Origin: a virus
Reading direction: 5' to 3' (one strand)
Virus genome (UHGV): UHGV-0296476
DNA: 5,840 nucleotides
Shown here: positions 1 through 5,840 of the stretch, piece by piece
How positions within the stretch are numbered: position 1 is the stretch's first letter
Layout of the letters: the number at the start of each line of letters is the position of its first letter
Translations under genes and position numbers: made by a program
The notes under the pieces: model-generated
What the model was told of the DNA's origin: nothing
What the model saw: only the letters and a program-made list of their open reading frames with translations
The model's database searches: none

Positions 1-115
1 GGGCAGAGCTCTACTACTTCGTAGTCGTCATAATACATGTCCGAGGAGCGGACGAGTAACAACGCGCGGACCATTCTTGCGCTTCGACGACTTACGACGA
101 CGATAGGTCGAATCA

Positions 116-475
116 TCAGCCTTCATTTTCCTTTTTATTAAAAGTTAACACCAGCATTCCCGGATACAGTTGGACCGTAACACAGGAGTCAGAAAAATAA
201 CGCACAAACTCATTAAAATGCTCCTGCGAAAGATACCCAAAGCGACCAAATTCCTTTTCAGCGTCACTAAGACTTTCCACAAAGGCTACTACAAACGTAG
301 CAGGGACGGCGAGGCTTTCCAAGAAATCCCAGAAACTCAATTCAGATTCCTCATCAAAACTGCCGGCAGGAAGAAGATGGCCATAATGGAAACGATAATA
401 ACCACGGCACTCCGCAGAGGGGCGAAAGATAACCTGAGCGACTGCGCCCAAACTTGTTTTTTCTTCTGTCTTCAT
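116..475 (-). CDS. hypothetical protein, 119 aa, unknown function
   Basis: ATG at 473-475 and TGA at 116-118. It lies on the same strand as all other genes, after a terminator-like hairpin downstream of VP2. There are no recognisable motifs. The overlapping plus-strand 116-aa ORF is K/R-rich antisense noise. Confidence 0.4.
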   Translation of the reverse strand: MKTEEKTSLGAVAQVIFRPSAECRGYYRFHYGHLLPAGSFDEESELSFWDFLESLAVPATFVVAFVESLSDAEKEFGRFGYLSQEHFNEFVRYFSDSCVTVQLYPGMLVLTFNKKENEG

Positions 476-2491: not shown

Positions 2492-4339
2492 CTAACGATT
2501 CGCAAGACGGGTCGCAAACGTCTTATTAACAAGATTCTTCTTTCTCACACTGTACGACAAGTTCACAAAGAAATTATCCTCAGTAGTCGAAGAAAAAGGA
2601 CTATTCACCGTAGACATATCGACAAACAAAAGAGAGTAAACTTTCAAAGCCGTCGAGGTACCAAAAACAGAAACCGATCGTTGTTGAACCCAATACGAAT
2701 ACAAGGGAATCTCCTCAGAAGCAGACACATCACCAGCAGGCACACCATACGCAAACTGACCCTGCACACGATCATAAGAGGCACGGAACTCATTAAAGCA
2801 AGGCTCCTGAGCAACAGAAGTAAACGCAGCATAGGGAAAATCATAAGCAAGCTGAACCAAAGAAACATCCTGATAACCGATATCATTATACACGGGGTTG
2901 AAATAATCAGCGCCCTGATAACGAGCCCAATCCGGCAAAATACCAGTCCAATAATACACAGGACGGATACTAAACATATCAATCATATAGCCAGGCTCAC
3001 GGAAATAATACGATTGAGAGCGCCCAAGCTTCGAGTTAAATGCAATGGCACCACCTTGCGAACCAAGAACACCAGTAGAACCAAAATTACTCGAACCAGC
3101 TTGATTAAGGACAACCTGGACATTAACCGTCTGAGAAGCCGAAAAAAGCAACTTCGGACGATCGACATGCTCAATCTTCGAGGCAAAGAACGTTTCAAGC
3201 CAATCACTAAAACGAGAGCCACCAGCACCAAGAAGGTCCTTATACTCCTGCAAACGTGCAGCAACAGCCAACTGCGGGATCGTAGTAACACCATGCATCG
3301 ACACAGAACTATTCGAGGTTCCAGGAGGCAAGAGCCGGCTGAACCGGTCAGGAGACGACGGAACAACAGCCATAGGATGAGCTATACTCAAATACGAATA
3401 TCCAGTACCATTCGTAACTACCGAAGCAGAGGTCGAGCTAAACTGGGTAGAGGGGTAACTAAAATAACCAGTAGTAGCAAACGGACTCAAAGAAGCAACA
3501 GGATAACCATCAGACATAGACGACGATACCGTAACATTCAAATCCGAATTCACAATCTGCAAGAACAAATTACCACGATTGAACGTACCGTCGGGGCTTG
3601 TCACAGCATTAGGATAAAACTGCGATTCATAATAAGCATCAAGATACTCCAAATTACCATAACGTTGAGTAAAATAAGCAGTCTCAGATTTAGCAACAGA
3701 ATATTCAGAATGATCAGAAACCAAAGTATGCGCAAGATACCAAGAAGCAGGCCAAGCAAACGAATACGTCTTCCACTGAGAAAACGAATAATAATTACGA
3801 ACTATATCCCAATATGCAAGATACGGATCAGCATTCACCCAAATGTTTTCAAGACCAGAAACGCTAGAAACACCAGACAGAGAAACCGAAGAATATTTTT
3901 GCGGAGTCATCACAGAACCACTATAAGCAATATCACGCGAGACTCCATACAACCACGACATCAAAGAATTAGGATAAGCTGTCTGACCAACACCGGCTTC
4001 ATAAAAACCAATTCCAGGAGTAGAGTTAAACAAAAAATTCAACGAAAGATCGTTCATATCAAACGCACTGGAATTAGTACGCATCTCAGGATGATACAAC
4101 TGCAAAGGCACCCAGAAACGATGCAGACGCACCGTATACGGGTTGAACGAAGGTACAGCGAGAGGATTCGAACGGACATCAATGCCCTGATCAATTGTCA
4201 CACGGTCACGAGCATTGATAAAGTCCACACGCACAGGATACAAAATACCGGGAGTGCAGGTAAAAGCCACACTCTCCGGCAAGTCATATCGCGAATAACC
4301 ATTCACGACATGCGAGATATAAGGCTGCTTAGCCATCAC
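2492..4339 (-). CDS. major capsid protein VP1 (Microviridae F-like jelly-roll capsid)
   Basis: 615-aa ORF, the largest in the window. The N-terminal block ...FTCTPGILYPVRVDFINARDRVTIDQ...NPYTVRLHRFWVPLQLYHPEM has the pattern I recall from gokushovirus/phiX174 F proteins (PGD..., R.H.FFVP.R..W). The first codon at 4337-4339 is GTG (shown as M in the track) and the next is ATG at 4334-4336, so the true start may be 4336. Stop is TAG at 2492-2494. Ser-rich surface-loop-like segments fall at aa 149-163 and ~296-318. Confidence 0.85.
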   Translation of the reverse strand: MMAKQPYISHVVNGYSRYDLPESVAFTCTPGILYPVRVDFINARDRVTIDQGIDVRSNPLAVPSFNPYTVRLHRFWVPLQLYHPEMRTNSSAFDMNDLSLNFLFNSTPGIGFYEAGVGQTAYPNSLMSWLYGVSRDIAYSGSVMTPQKYSSVSLSGVSSVSGLENIWVNADPYLAYWDIVRNYYSFSQWKTYSFAWPASWYLAHTLVSDHSEYSVAKSETAYFTQRYGNLEYLDAYYESQFYPNAVTSPDGTFNRGNLFLQIVNSDLNVTVSSSMSDGYPVASLSPFATTGYFSYPSTQFSSTSASVVTNGTGYSYLSIAHPMAVVPSSPDRFSRLLPPGTSNSSVSMHGVTTIPQLAVAARLQEYKDLLGAGGSRFSDWLETFFASKIEHVDRPKLLFSASQTVNVQVVLNQAGSSNFGSTGVLGSQGGAIAFNSKLGRSQSYYFREPGYMIDMFSIRPVYYWTGILPDWARYQGADYFNPVYNDIGYQDVSLVQLAYDFPYAAFTSVAQEPCFNEFRASYDRVQGQFAYGVPAGDVSASEEIPLYSYWVQQRSVSVFGTSTALKVYSLLFVDMSTVNSPFSSTTEDNFFVNLSYSVRKKNLVNKTFATRLANR

Positions 4340-5456
4340 AACTATATTTAAGGGTTAAACATGAGAACAAATCATCGTACTCCTTCTCAAAATACAAATC
4401 TGCCATATAATCTCCAAGATCGTTATCTGAGCCGACTATTCTACGCCGAATAGACGAAAAAACTCGGCTTGCAACGTCCGGACTCAGAAGACAACTAGGA
4501 AGATCACCAGTGCAATGAGAAGGAGCGGGGGTACGCAAATAAGGAACCAACCGAGGGGAGAGATACGAATATCGACGCCAACGGGCCAAGGTTGAAGCAC
4601 CAAATTGTAACTCAGCAAGTTTATCAACGATGCGACAAGCCAGGGAAGAAACGCAAACATGTGAATAATACCAAGAAGAACGAAGCTCCCGGGCTTGCTT
4701 ATCTTCTTCGGCCATATACTTATCATAGTATCGAGGAATGCGATAGTTAAACCGAGTACCGCGCGCAAAATCCAGATAAGACCAGGTCGAAACACGAAGT
4801 GAAGGGCGAGGCATGCGACCAAGATAATCGCCAACATGAGCAGAAACGAACTTACGTCGGTAAATCCGGGGGTTATACCAGTCACGCTGCTGCAAGTACT
4901 CGGGGACCATAGCGCCGACATCTTTAAGAATATACTTGACGCAATACCGGGCTCGGTTATGGGTAGCTTTACTAATCCAGACATATCCGAGGTCACCAAT
5001 GACACGTCGAAGCTCCGCATAGGAACAGGGGAGACCGAACAAGAACCCATGAAAATGGAGGCGGGGCACATCTCCTGTAACGGGATGAGTACCGAACTCC
5101 TGAAAGAAGGCATGCTTGATGCTTTTACCGAAAGCACGCCGAACACGCTCATTCCAAGCGCGAATAAAAGCCGAAGGGAATTGAACTGCAACCGCATAAA
5201 GCTTTGGAGAAATAGTTATTGTCACAAATACTGCCTGACGACGCTCATCTCGACAACGTGCAAGCTCACGTTCAAGACGGACGTACCACGCATTACGCTC
5301 GGCACGAAGACACTCTTCACACTTGCCGCAAGGAACAAGCAAGCGTTGACGGGCAAGGTCGCCAGGATGCTCAGCGAGCTGAACCGCGATCTCCTCAAAG
5401 GTGATGTCTCGTTTATAATAACGACGGTTGCGAATCCAAAGGGGCGACGTACACAT
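4329..5456 (-). CDS. Microviridae replication initiation protein, rolling-circle HUH endonuclease (VP4 / gpA-like)
   Basis: 375-aa ORF with an ATG start; the CATATG at 5454-5459 contains it. Motif 1 is FVTITI at aa 77-82. Motif 2 (HUH) is LHFHGFLF at aa 133-140, with codons checked at 5049-5057. Motif 3 is YCVKYILKD at aa 171-179 (two catalytic Tyr, YxxKY), with codons checked at 4932-4946. An N-terminal CGKCEEC cysteine cluster sits at aa 43-49 (nt 5310-5330). The stop codon TAA at 4329-4331 overlaps the capsid gene start by 8-11 nt. Confidence 0.85.
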   Translation of the reverse strand: MCTSPLWIRNRRYYKRDITFEEIAVQLAEHPGDLARQRLLVPCGKCEECLRAERNAWYVRLERELARCRDERRQAVFVTITISPKLYAVAVQFPSAFIRAWNERVRRAFGKSIKHAFFQEFGTHPVTGDVPRLHFHGFLFGLPCSYAELRRVIGDLGYVWISKATHNRARYCVKYILKDVGAMVPEYLQQRDWYNPRIYRRKFVSAHVGDYLGRMPRPSLRVSTWSYLDFARGTRFNYRIPRYYDKYMAEEDKQARELRSSWYYSHVCVSSLACRIVDKLAELQFGASTLARWRRYSYLSPRLVPYLRTPAPSHCTGDLPSCLLSPDVASRVFSSIRRRIVGSDNDLGDYMADLYFEKEYDDLFSCLTLKYSCDG

Positions 5457-5550
5457 ATGAAAGTATTAAAAGTAAAAGGTAAGTAAGAATAAAAGTGTAC
5501 GGCCGTAGATGGATTCACAACCGTCGCTACCACAAACGAGCCATCGAATA

Positions 5551-5655
5551 TATGCATCTCGCGGTAAGCGCTCGATGCGTTCAAAAGAGCTCGTACAACT
5601 CGCGGGAGATCTAATCCGACTCGCACTTCGGCGGTAAGCGCCGAGTGCTTGTCGG
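5551..5655. repeat. two hairpins presenting the same GTAAG loop, plus an 11-nt direct repeat GCGGTAAGCGC (5561-5571 and 5631-5641)
   Basis: Hairpin A: GCATC (5554-5558) pairs with GATGC (5574-5578), enclosing an inner GCG-GTAAG-CGC. Hairpin B: CCGAC (5616-5620) pairs with GTCGG (5651-5655), GCACT (5623-5627) with AGTGC (5644-5648), and CGGCG (5629-5633) with CGCCG (5639-5643), with loop GTAAG (5634-5638); that is 15 bp in total with a 1-nt bulge and a 2x2 internal loop. ACTCGC also repeats at 5598-5603 and 5619-5624. Confidence 0.6.
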
Positions 5656-5735
5656 ATATTTATTTCTTCCTTGCTCTGCCTCTGAGCAGTTACACAGCTC
5701 TTTGTCGTCTTATGCAAAGGTCGATAGAGCGCATC

Positions 5736-5782
5736 CACATACAAGGATATACAAGCGCTCCTTCGGAGCGTCCTTGTATGTG
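5736..5782. other. 47-nt compound stem-loop in the rep leader (candidate origin or regulatory hairpin)
   Basis: A perfect 12-bp outer stem pairs 5736-5747 (CACATACAAGGA) with 5771-5782 (TCCTTGTATGTG). An inner 6-bp stem pairs 5756-5761 with 5765-5770 around a TTC tri-loop. The 8-nt bulge TATACAAG duplicates the ATACAAG of the outer stem, so an alternative register exists. Confidence 0.55.
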
Positions 5783-5840
5783 TCTGCTTGCTCTATCTGT
5801 TTTTGCATTGCGACGCCGACGAGCAGTTTAACTGCCACGA

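What the first reader, a model, noticed from the sequence alone, without database searches (positions are those of the whole stretch)
5551..5655. Two hairpins displaying an identical GTAAG loop, with an 11-nt direct repeat, in the rep leader
GCGGTAAGCGC occurs twice, 70 nt apart, and each copy sits at the tip of a hairpin so that GTAAG is presented as the loop. Hairpin B is a long 15-bp compound stem. A repeated loop on different stems suggests a recognition element such as a Rep nick or binding site, a complementary-strand origin or primosome assembly site on the ssDNA, or a packaging signal, rather than chance. Where the origin of non-phiX microviruses lies is poorly defined, as far as I know.
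Basis: seen in the sequence. Interest (0 to 1): 0.6.

Follow-up and report, generated by a model that had tools for sequence, protein, structure and literature searches.

The report
Dispensable twin-hairpin module in microvirus intergenic region
Two DNA hairpins with the same 11-base tip are real and kept by selection in this small gut phage, but a close relative lives without them, so they are probably an optional replication helper and not the site where the phage's Rep protein cuts.

Summary
GCGGTAAGCGC occurs at 5561-5571 and 5631-5641, and each copy caps a predicted hairpin (A 5554-5578, weak; B 5614-5657, strong). The window is a complete microvirus whose genes all lie on the minus strand. 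That strand is T-rich and is probably the packaged one, so the biologically relevant tip reads GCG-CTTAC-CGC.

Hairpin B, a 34-nt spacer and hairpin A form one module of about 110 nt. Sixteen close relatives carry it. Its pairwise identity is 0.97, against 0.86-0.89 at four-fold sites, which indicates purifying selection.

One sublineage, including a complete circular genome, lacks exactly this module. Relatives with about 50% Rep identity carry other hairpin cassettes at the same place. This argues against an essential Rep nick site.

My best reading (confidence about 0.35) is an accessory, exchangeable single-strand replication signal, like a complementary-strand origin or a plasmid sso. Covariation is uninformative and no function was tested.

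Two side findings may matter more. Neighbouring non-coding cassettes keep their polarity relative to the T-rich strand, not relative to the genes. One microvirus lineage encodes its genes on the A-rich strand.

The parts
5631..5641 (-). 11-nt repeat, copy in hairpin B. It reads GCGCTTACCGC on the coding strand and GCGGTAAGCGC on +.
   Evidence: Five of 16 relatives have GCGTTTACCGC.
5561..5571 (-). 11-nt repeat, copy in hairpin A.
   Evidence: One relative has CTTGC in the loop and one has GCA in place of GCG in the stem.
5614..5657 (-). Hairpin B, on the coding strand: ATCCGAC-AA-GCAC-T-CGGCG-[CTTAC]-CGCCG-A-(A)-GTGC-GA-GTCGGAT.
   Evidence: -18 kcal/mol as DNA, z = -6. One compensatory A:T to G:C change in the outer stem in L090, and an A indel confined to the bulge.
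5579..5613 (-). Spacer between the hairpins (coding strand: TAGATCTCCCGCGAGTTGTACGAGCTCTTTTGAAC). It is conserved as strongly as the stems.
   Evidence: pairwise identity 0.971, measured over window 5580-5613.
5554..5578 (-). Hairpin A, on the coding strand: GCATC-GA-GCG-[CTTAC]-CGC-GA-GATGC. The 2x2 internal loop is a tandem G.A/A.G on this strand.
   Evidence: -6.9 kcal/mol as DNA, z = -2.2. Pairwise identity 0.983 over 5553-5579.
5552..5662 (-). The indel module, about 110 nt. It is present in 16 sampled relatives and absent as one block from L104, L116 and one copy in L082. The boundaries are ambiguous by a few nt because both ends lie in ATAT-type A/T-rich sequence.
   Evidence: The module-less sequences form one clade nested among the carriers in a midpoint-rooted NJ tree.
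5670..5840 (-). Context: the adjacent large imperfect hairpin. It runs on across the window ends to about position 10. It shares 17- and 18-nt identical cores with very distant microviruses.
5499..5524 (-). Context: a hairpin with two G.T wobbles on the coding strand, followed by a T-rich run, 43 nt before the rep ATG. Module-less relatives keep it.
28..126 (-). Context: a 32-aa basic ORF (MKADDSTYRRRKSSKRKNGPRVVTRPLLGHVL) resembling phiX J or gokushovirus VP8. It bounds the non-coding region on the other side.
   Evidence: A similar ORF with ..VVTRPLGG.VL* occurs in distant relatives. No PHROG match.

Best explanation
Hairpin B, a 34-nt spacer and hairpin A form one non-coding module of about 110 nt. 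It lies in the roughly 410-nt structured region between the J-like gene and rep, on the T-rich coding strand that is most likely packaged.

I propose it is an accessory single-strand replication signal. After the phage injects its DNA, or after rolling-circle displacement, the hairpins would stay double-stranded while SSB coats the rest of the strand. They would then present the repeated tip GCG-CTTAC-CGC to a host priming enzyme (RNA polymerase, primase or PriA-type) and speed synthesis of the complementary strand.

The module helps but is not required, like the minus-strand origin of Ff phages or the exchangeable sso cassettes of rolling-circle plasmids. The Rep nick site is elsewhere.

Shown here: the structure prediction, conservation, purifying selection, block loss in a viable-looking lineage, turnover of cassettes among relatives, and strand polarity of the neighbouring elements. 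Inferred, not shown: the ssDNA-level function, the identity of the binding protein, and priming itself.
For: (1) The repeat and hairpins are real.

(2) The module's pairwise identity is 0.972 among 12 complete module-bearing genomes, and the spacer's is 0.971. Four-fold sites give 0.892 in rep and 0.855 in VP2, and the rep-proximal leader gives 0.845.

(3) The module is lost as one block in L104, L116 (a circular 5756-nt genome with a 1061-nt terminal overlap) and one strain in L082. These form a single nested clade. The module is therefore dispensable, as an accessory origin can be.

(4) Substitution asymmetries on the coding strand mark it as the ssDNA-exposed strand: C>T 139 against G>A 87 per 1000 sites, and G>T 38.5 against C>A 16.3. 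Its four-fold sites are 57% T.

(5) Other non-coding cassettes in this virus group keep their polarity relative to the T-rich strand, not the genes. The adjacent big hairpin is antisense to the genes in this window and in a Dipodfec virus, but sense in the goose viruses. The TACCGY hairpin lies on the T-rich strand in 81 of 82 contexts, including 5 where the genes are on the other strand. This fits a replication or ssDNA role and not a transcriptional one.

(6) Cassettes turn over among genomes with more than 90% identical Rep proteins. L063 lacks only the TACCGY hairpin; L066 and L080 carry different hairpins.

(7) The inner part of hairpin B aligns with the TACCGY hairpin as GCRC-TCG...TACCG...CGA-A-GYGC, including the bulged A. 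The score is weak (rank 2, 6.7 bits, E about 2).

(8) Conserved hairpins before rep in other microviruses have been proposed, without proof, as complementary-strand initiation sites (PMC9865509).
Against: There is no functional evidence.

Covariation is uninformative: 20 of 25 pairs are invariant, there is one compensatory change, and 80 of 500 shuffles score as high.

Folding energies are the same on both strands, so the acting strand is inferred only from composition and substitution spectra.

Homology to the TACCGY hairpin is not significant: nhmmer gives no hit and the covariance model gives E about 2. The polarity argument is therefore transferred from neighbouring elements, not measured on hairpins A and B, which occur only in one clade and one orientation.

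A TACCG-tipped hairpin also lies on the A-rich strand inside rep (5120-5136).

Low diversity of the module could partly reflect recent spread by recombination.

RNA-level roles are not excluded.
Confidence: 0.35

Rival explanations
1. Rep (+)-strand origin: the hairpins display the Rep binding or nick site, in two copies.
For: HUH Rep proteins often recognise hairpin-displayed motifs (general knowledge). The module lies just upstream of rep. No phiX-type ori sequence is present anywhere in the window, so the origin is unassigned. A third YTTACCG copy on the coding strand sits in a hairpin inside rep (4847-4868). It could be a primary site, as in phiX174, where the origin lies in gene A.
Against: A complete circular genome (L116) and two other sequences (L104, and one strain in L082) lack both hairpins. 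Rep is about 94% identical where it was measured (L104 and the L082 contig). The loop varies (TTTAC, CTTGC). In relatives, hairpin cassettes differ between genomes with more than 90% identical Rep proteins, and the same cassette occurs with Rep proteins below 32% identity.
Confidence: 0.12
2. RNA-level element. On the sense strand, the hairpins would stabilise the 3' end of the late mRNA or structure the rep 5' UTR. On the antisense strand, a small counter-transcript (hairpin A, spacer, then hairpin B as terminator) would control rep, as in rolling-circle plasmids.
For: On the + strand hairpin B is followed by ATATTTATTTCTTCC and is scored as terminator-like. The hairpins are more stable as RNA. 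No canonical terminator follows the J-like gene before the module on the coding strand, so late transcripts probably run through it. The sense loop CUUAC contains a YUNR (CUUA) motif of the kind found in kissing loops (general knowledge).
Against: The scan reports no promoter-like site on the + strand upstream of hairpin A. Hairpins A and B have no U-tract after them on the coding strand. The T-rich linker is the least conserved part (0.876). The spacer is as constrained as the stems, which simple stabiliser hairpins would not need. Homologous neighbouring cassettes flip relative to the genes, which does not fit a transcriptional role for this region as a whole.
Confidence: 0.2
3. Double-strand operator sites: GCG-N5-CGC is a small dyad, and two copies 70 bp apart bind a dimeric regulator on the replicative form.
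For: The two copies share an exact 11-bp core with dyad symmetry. The spacer sequence is conserved.
Against: Each copy is embedded in a longer inverted repeat of different sequence (16 and 8 pairs). One change in B's outer stem, outside the shared core, is compensatory. That is expected for an extruded or single-stranded hairpin and is unnecessary for a duplex operator. No regulator gene is evident.
Confidence: 0.08
4. Selfish or neutral insertion: a MITE- or PATE-like element with two subterminal hairpins, or a local duplication remnant, with no function for the phage.
For: The module behaves as a discrete indel flanked by ATAT-type microhomology. IS200/IS605-type elements carry similar hairpins at both ends and move through ssDNA (general knowledge).
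Against: A scan for the two-11-mer pattern found no related copy in 185,579 bacterial and archaeal genomes or in IMG/VR outside this clade. All other hits were unrelated repeats or chance. The module is more conserved than four-fold sites. The tree favours loss, not gain.
Confidence: 0.07
5. Packaging or condensation signal bound by the J-like basic protein or the capsid.
For: It would be a repeated motif on the packaged strand, next to the J-like gene.
Against: In studied Microviridae, packaging is coupled to Rep-driven synthesis and no separate signal is known (general knowledge). The module is dispensable.
Confidence: 0.05

Closest known systems
Complementary (minus)-strand origin of Ff phages (M13/f1 intergenic hairpins B and C)
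   Same: Two adjacent hairpins on the packaged strand, inside a multi-hairpin intergenic region next to the replication gene. Viable deletions exist (from memory: Kim, Hines and Ray 1981). The region is conserved but not essential.
   Different: No sequence similarity. The promoter-like -35/-10 mimicry that RNA polymerase recognises was not found here. It is a different phage family, and the host is probably different (inferred only). The function of A and B is untested.
Single-strand origins (ssoA, ssoT, ssoU, ssoW) of rolling-circle plasmids
   Same: Non-coding, strongly folded and strand-specific. They are exchangeable cassettes that vary among replicons with the same Rep, can be deleted at a fitness cost, and carry a conserved short motif in a loop.
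   Different: RS_B and CS-6 were not identified at the hairpin tips. A TAGCGA hexamer nearby on the coding strand is not in a predicted loop and is expected by chance. These are plasmid elements, not phage elements.
phiX174 n' (PriA) primosome assembly site and the G4-type primase origin
   Same: Hairpins in a microvirus intergenic region on the viral strand that start complementary-strand synthesis.
   Different: They lie elsewhere in the genome (the F-G/H region) and share no sequence with this module. PriA or DnaG dependence cannot be tested here.
Conserved intergenic hairpins of reekeekee- and roodoodooviruses (PMC9865509)
   Same: Conserved hairpins just before rep in uncultured microviruses, with an identical loop across divergent genomes and compensatory stem changes. 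The authors also proposed, without proof, a role in minus-strand initiation.
   Different: The sequences and virus clades are unrelated. Here the tip is repeated on two different stems, and the module is demonstrably dispensable.
TACCGY hairpin (GCGC-TCGAAAG-TACCGY-CTTTCGA-A-GCGC) of related gut microviruses, defined here
   Same: Same region (upstream of rep) and same strand (T-rich). TACCG sits at the tip. The base helix is the same, GCRC-TCG/CGA-A-GYGC with a bulged A. It is also an indel in some genomes (L063).
   Different: The similarity is not statistically significant (no hit; E about 2). The upper helix and loop differ. It is present as a single copy in those genomes.

Membership tests
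phiX174-type (+) origin (gene A protein site) | The conserved roughly 30-nt origin sequence CAACTTGATATTAATAAC... | tested here: not met
   No match with up to 3 mismatches on either strand.
phiX174-type (+) origin (gene A protein site) | Indispensable for replication by the cognate Rep. | tested here: not met
   A complete circular relative (L116) and L104 and L082a lack the module. Rep is about 94% identical where measured.
phiX174-type (+) origin (gene A protein site) | Site-specific nicking by Rep. | not testable with these tools
   This needs purified Rep and oligonucleotide or supercoiled substrates.
Complementary-strand origin / sso-like signal | Non-coding, strongly folded segment on the packaged strand. 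| tested here: met
   The 384-nt intergenic stretch folds with z = -7.0 and hairpin B with z = -6. An A indel within hairpin B makes an ORF through the module unlikely. Composition and substitution spectra infer that the coding strand is the packaged one.
Complementary-strand origin / sso-like signal | Strand-specific: it works in only one orientation relative to the displaced strand. | tested here: inconclusive
   A and B occur in only one clade and one orientation. Neighbouring cassettes do follow the T-rich strand.
Complementary-strand origin / sso-like signal | Dispensable or exchangeable cassette, independent of Rep type. | tested here: met
   Block loss within the clade. Different cassettes occur in genomes with more than 90% identical Rep proteins.
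Complementary-strand origin / sso-like signal | Primer synthesis by a host enzyme at the site. | not testable with these tools
   This needs in vitro ssDNA-to-RF conversion with primer mapping.
Intrinsic terminator | GC-rich hairpin directly followed by a T/U tract on the transcribed strand. | tested here: not met
   On the coding strand neither A nor B is followed by a T-run. Only B on the antisense (+) strand meets the loose scan criterion.
Antisense counter-transcript of rolling-circle replicons | A promoter on the strand opposite rep, followed by stem-loops and a terminator. | tested here: inconclusive
   A terminator-like site is present on + at 5632-5654, but no promoter-like site lies upstream of hairpin A. 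That scan covers sigma-70-type promoters only.
MITE / IS200-IS605-derived PATE | Multiple dispersed copies in host or phage genomes. | tested here: not met
   The two-11-mer pattern found no related copy outside this phage clade, either in IMG/VR or in 185,579 genomes.
Known RNA families (Rfam 15) | A match to any covariance model. | tested here: not met
   No match at E up to 1 over the whole window, both strands.
TACCGY hairpin family of related microviruses | A significant match to the family profile or covariance model. | tested here: not met
   nhmmer gives no hit on A or B. With model R1, hairpin B ranks second at 6.7 bits, E about 1.9.

The most novel reading that the evidence does not exclude
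The hairpin cassettes in the non-coding region of these gut microviruses, A and B among them, are interchangeable, strand-specific replication origins. Their polarity defines or follows the packaged strand.

Both the big hairpin and the TACCGY hairpin keep their orientation to the T-rich strand while the gene block is flipped in the goose and dog lineage. That lineage would then package the strand antisense to its genes. These would be the first negative-sense microviruses.
Probability: 0.3. Interest if true: 0.75.

Novelty: new variant of a known kind. Interest (0 to 1): 0.42.

Why it matters
Where non-phiX microviruses start each strand of replication is still unknown, and these phages are abundant in gut viromes.

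This case supplies a natural experiment. Near-isogenic genomes exist with and without a defined two-hairpin module, so the module's role can be tested directly with synthetic genomes.

It also shows that microvirus non-coding regions are mosaics of small hairpin cassettes that are gained, lost and exchanged independently of Rep. That parallels the sso cassettes of rolling-circle plasmids.

The wider pattern deserves follow-up: cassette polarity tracks the T-rich strand, and one lineage has its genes on the A-rich strand. If virion DNA confirms this, it would overturn the assumption that all Microviridae are positive-sense. It would also give a simple sequence rule for locating their origins.

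Tried and rejected
- Rfam scan of the whole window: no hits.
- CRISPR-like or tandem-repeat reading of the 70-nt spacing: rejected, because only the 11-mer is shared. Other contigs with the same two-11-mer pattern are unrelated coding repeats.
- MITE/PATE idea, including the IS608 TTAC target coincidence: no copies in bacterial genomes.
- phiX ori motif: absent.
- Deciding the strand from folding energy: A and B are equally stable on both strands, as DNA and as RNA.
- Deciding the strand from wobble pairs: 3 stem sites (7 cells) give U.G on the coding strand, and 2 cells are unpaired on it but would be G.U on the other strand. This is too few to decide, and it is confounded by C>T bias.
- Covariation: uninformative.
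- Homology of A and B to the TACCGY hairpin by nhmmer and by a covariance model: not significant. A search for intermediate forms in 16 other genomes found none.
- 'TACCG at a hairpin tip always lies on the T-rich strand': not strictly true, since the window has one on the A-rich strand inside rep.
- dif/XerCD or integron attC reading of the adjacent big hairpin: considered by eye only. The arm motifs are in the wrong arrangement for attC and I saw no convincing dif core. Not tested further.
- Literature searches found no description of these cassettes or of negative-sense microviruses.

Full report
**What the window is.** The 5840-nt window is a complete-looking microvirus genome with every gene on the minus strand.
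- Rep: 5456->4329 (PF23343, phrog_942).
- Major capsid protein: 4339->2492 (Phage_F, phrog_514).
- Two 102-aa ORFs.
- A 410-aa pilot-like protein: 1794->562 (phrog_8689).
- A 119-aa ORF.
- A 32-aa basic ORF resembling phiX J or gokushovirus VP8: 126->28.

The non-coding region therefore runs, on the coding strand, from about window 27 across the window ends to 5457, roughly 410 nt. The finding lies inside it. None of the gene starts I inspected by eye has a Shine-Dalgarno sequence. That hints at a Bacteroidota host, but this is inference only.

**Check of the observation.**
- GCGGTAAGCGC occurs at 5561-5571 and 5631-5641 and nowhere else. None of 200 shuffles gave two matches.
- Each copy caps a predicted hairpin.
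- Hairpin B (5614-5657) is strong: -18 kcal/mol as DNA, z = -6.
- Hairpin A (5554-5578) is weak alone: -6.9 kcal/mol, with 5 of 200 shuffles as good.
- The whole 384-nt stretch folds far better than shuffles on either strand (z about -7).
- Because the genes are on the minus strand, the loop on the coding strand is CTTAC and the shared tip is GCG-CTTAC-CGC.

**Which strand is packaged.** The coding strand is T-rich: 33.8% T overall and 57% T against 8% A at four-fold sites. Among 13 related genomes, rare-allele substitutions are asymmetric on the coding strand. C>T is 139 against G>A 87 per 1000 source bases, and G>T is 38.5 against C>A 16.3. Both are the signatures expected for the strand that spends time single-stranded. 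This agrees with the usual microvirus arrangement, so CTTAC is the form exposed in viral ssDNA.

**Relatives.**
- The Rep belongs to one 90%-identity cluster of 357 sequences. The next relatives are only about 54% identical.
- I collected 19 non-coding regions of this clade from IMG/VR and metagenome contigs.
- Sixteen carry both hairpins. The variation is small: hairpin B's loop is TTTAC in five, hairpin A's loop is CTTGC in one, an A indel sits in B's bulge, and a few stem sites change C>T to give T.G on the coding strand. There is one fully compensatory A:T to G:C change in B's outer stem, in L090.
- A formal pair count on 13 distinct sequences is uninformative. Twenty of 25 pairs never vary and 80 of 500 shuffles score as high.

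**Selection.** Among 12 complete module-bearing genomes the pairwise identities are:
- hairpin B 0.966, spacer 0.971, hairpin A 0.983, whole module 0.972;
- four-fold sites 0.892 in rep and 0.855 in VP2;
- rep-proximal leader 0.845;
- codon positions 1 and 2 of rep 0.966.

The module, including its unpaired spacer, is thus as constrained as protein-coding positions. An A indel within hairpin B makes a reading frame through the module unlikely.

**The decisive observation: the module can be lost.**
- L104, L116 and one of the two strains joined in contig L082 lack a block of about 110 nt that contains exactly hairpin B, the spacer and hairpin A. The flanking sequence, including the big hairpin and the rep-proximal hairpin, is intact.
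- L116 has a 1061-nt exact terminal overlap, so it is a complete circular genome of 5756 nt.
- The three share derived substitutions and form one clade nested among module-bearing genomes in a midpoint-rooted tree of the rep 5' region. A single deletion is the simplest history.
- The junctions lie in ATAT-type A/T-rich sequence.
- Rep is about 94% identical where it was measured (L104 and the L082 contig).

An element that a lineage can lose while keeping a near-identical Rep cannot be the only Rep nick site.

**Not a mobile element.** The pattern of two 11-mers 45-75 nt apart found only this clade among viral contigs; the other hits were coding tandem repeats. None of 59 hits in 185,579 prokaryotic genomes is related to the module. 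No Rfam family matches and no phiX-type origin sequence is present.

**What distant relatives have there.** Microviruses with about 50% identical Rep have no CTTAC-loop hairpins. They do have a conserved structured block of about 200 nt after the J-like gene and a canonical terminator, with several hairpins showing compensatory changes.
- Its last hairpin, GCGC-TCGAAAG-TACCGY-CTTTCGA-A-GCGC, is nearly invariant in 43 of 74 loci and in about 80 IMG/VR contigs.
- That hairpin is also an indel. L063 lacks exactly it, although its Rep is 91% identical to a carrier's. L066 and L080 (about 92%) carry other hairpins.
- The same hairpin occurs with Rep proteins that share less than 32% identity with this window's Rep.

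So these cassettes are not tied to Rep specificity.

**Similarity of hairpin B to the TACCGY hairpin.** The tips of A and B contain TACCGC. A covariance model of the TACCGY hairpin places B's inner part as the second-best hit in the window. It aligns GCAC-TCG...TACCG...CGA-A-GTGC with the family's GCGC-TCG...TACCG...CGA-A-GCGC, including the bulged A. The score is only 6.7 bits (E about 2), and a sequence profile sees nothing. I treat this as a lead, not as homology.

**Polarity of the neighbouring cassettes.**
- The large imperfect hairpin next to the module (about 5670 to 5840 and on to position 10) has clear homologues in two goose-faeces microviruses and a Dipodfec virus. These include identical cores GCTCTGCCTCTGAGCAG and TGCGACGCCGACGAGCAG. 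Yet those viruses' Rep proteins are only 26-28% identical to this window's, and their capsid proteins are barely alignable to it.
- Its orientation is unambiguous: alignment scores are 50-70 in one orientation against 8-30 in the other.
- It lies antisense to the genes in the window and in the Dipodfec virus, but sense in the goose viruses. The goose viruses have A-rich coding strands, with four-fold sites about 50% A and 10% T. The element is therefore on the same compositional strand in all four.
- Likewise, the TACCGY hairpin is on the T-rich strand in 81 of 82 contexts. These include a five-member clade (dog-faeces MG945515 and four IMG/VR contigs) whose genes are on the other, A-rich strand.
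- In that clade the transversion asymmetry is mirrored: C>A 31 against G>T 11 on the coding strand. Transitions are roughly symmetric.

Elements that keep their polarity to the T-rich strand while the genes flip are hard to explain as promoters, terminators or UTRs. They are easy to explain as replication or ssDNA signals.

**Interpretation.**
- My best explanation (about 0.35) is that A and B are an accessory single-strand replication signal on the packaged strand. This is a complementary-strand initiation or enhancer site, analogous to the dispensable minus-strand origin of Ff phages and to the exchangeable sso cassettes of rolling-circle plasmids. The repeated tip would be the recognition determinant for a host enzyme.
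- A similar but unproven proposal exists for conserved hairpins before rep in other uncultured microviruses (PMC9865509).
- The Rep-origin reading (about 0.12) survives only if the primary site is elsewhere. One candidate is the third YTTACCG copy on the coding strand, inside rep at 4847-4868.
- RNA-level roles (about 0.2) remain open. On the antisense strand, hairpin B plus its T-rich tail looks like a terminator, but the scan reports no promoter-like site upstream of hairpin A.
- A duplex operator, a selfish insertion and a packaging signal are less likely, for the reasons given under the rival explanations.

**Limits.**
- All functional statements are inference.
- The polarity argument rests on neighbouring elements and on one A-rich lineage, so it covers few independent events.
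- The packaged strand is inferred from composition and substitution spectra, not measured.
- The tree root is a midpoint root in a recombining group.
- Low diversity in the module could partly reflect recent recombinational spread.

**Verdict.** It is a new variant of a known kind of element, of moderate interest in itself. The side observation on strand polarity and A-rich-coding microviruses merits its own follow-up.

Noticed in passing
window 5670-5840 continuing to 1-10; L181 (MG945634) about 5700-5880; L193 (MG945396) about 5695-5880; L192 (OM869608) 3368-3478: A large imperfect hairpin of about 180 nt next to the finding is shared with very distant microviruses (Rep 26-28% identical). 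It has identical 17- and 18-nt cores, a conserved one-sided bulge TATAYARA, and an apical mini-hairpin whose sequence differs between genomes while its pairing is kept. Its function is unknown. I considered dif/XerCD, attC and ssDNA-promoter readings only by eye.
   Followed up: partly
L181, L193 (goose), L194 (dog MG945515), L208, L233, L238, L250: These microviruses have strongly A-rich coding strands (four-fold sites 45-51% A, 9-11% T), the mirror image of the window and of most relatives. Their non-coding cassettes are inverted relative to the genes, so they still sit on the T-rich strand. The C>A against G>T asymmetry is mirrored as well. This suggests the lineage packages the strand antisense to its genes. 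I found no literature on this.
   Followed up: partly
L010-L077 and L195-L269, about 240 nt upstream of rep; for example L028 2740-2775: A near-invariant hairpin GCGC-TCGAAAG-TACCGY-CTTTCGA-A-GCGC closes a structured non-coding block of about 200 nt in about 80 IMG/VR microvirus contigs. It is missing as a clean indel in L063, and L066 and L080 have other hairpins in its place although their Rep proteins are more than 90% identical to those of carriers.
   Followed up: yes
window 126-28, minus strand: An unlisted 32-aa basic ORF (MKADDSTYRRRKSSKRKNGPRVVTRPLLGHVL) overlaps the stop of the 119-aa ORF. It is a likely J/VP8-type DNA-binding protein. A similar C-terminus, VVTRPLGG.VL, occurs in distant relatives.
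   Followed up: partly
window 5499-5524, minus strand: A hairpin with two G.T wobbles on the coding strand is followed by a T-rich run only 43 nt before the rep ATG. It looks like an intrinsic terminator or attenuator directly upstream of rep. Module-less relatives keep it.
   Followed up: no
window 4847-4868 (minus strand) and 5120-5136 (plus strand), both inside rep: Two hairpins inside the rep gene carry TACCG in or next to their tips: CGGATTTACCGACGTAAGTTCG on the coding strand and TGCTTT-TACCG-AAAGCA on the other strand. Both are also present in the module-less L116. They may be chance, or relevant to an origin inside rep as in phiX174.
   Followed up: partly
L082 (IMGVR_UViG_3300020029_000058, 10519 nt): This contig joins about 1.8 genome lengths from two strains roughly 89% identical, one with and one without the A/B module. 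It is probably an assembly chimera of co-occurring strains and not a true dimer.
   Followed up: partly
L181 (MG945634) 5600-5700: A tandem duplication of a two-hairpin unit (GTGYGC-TTC-GCRC and GAGGC-TCC-GCCTC, each twice) sits on the same side of the big hairpin as A and B do in the window. This is a second case of repeated hairpin tips beside that element, with unrelated sequence.
   Followed up: partly
L192 (OM869608) 3085-3122, plus strand: A perfect hairpin TCGAGAT-TACCG-ATCTCGA lies on the T-rich strand inside the pilot-protein gene, about 250 nt before that virus's big hairpin. The covariance-model score is weak (9.5 bits, E about 2.4).
   Followed up: no
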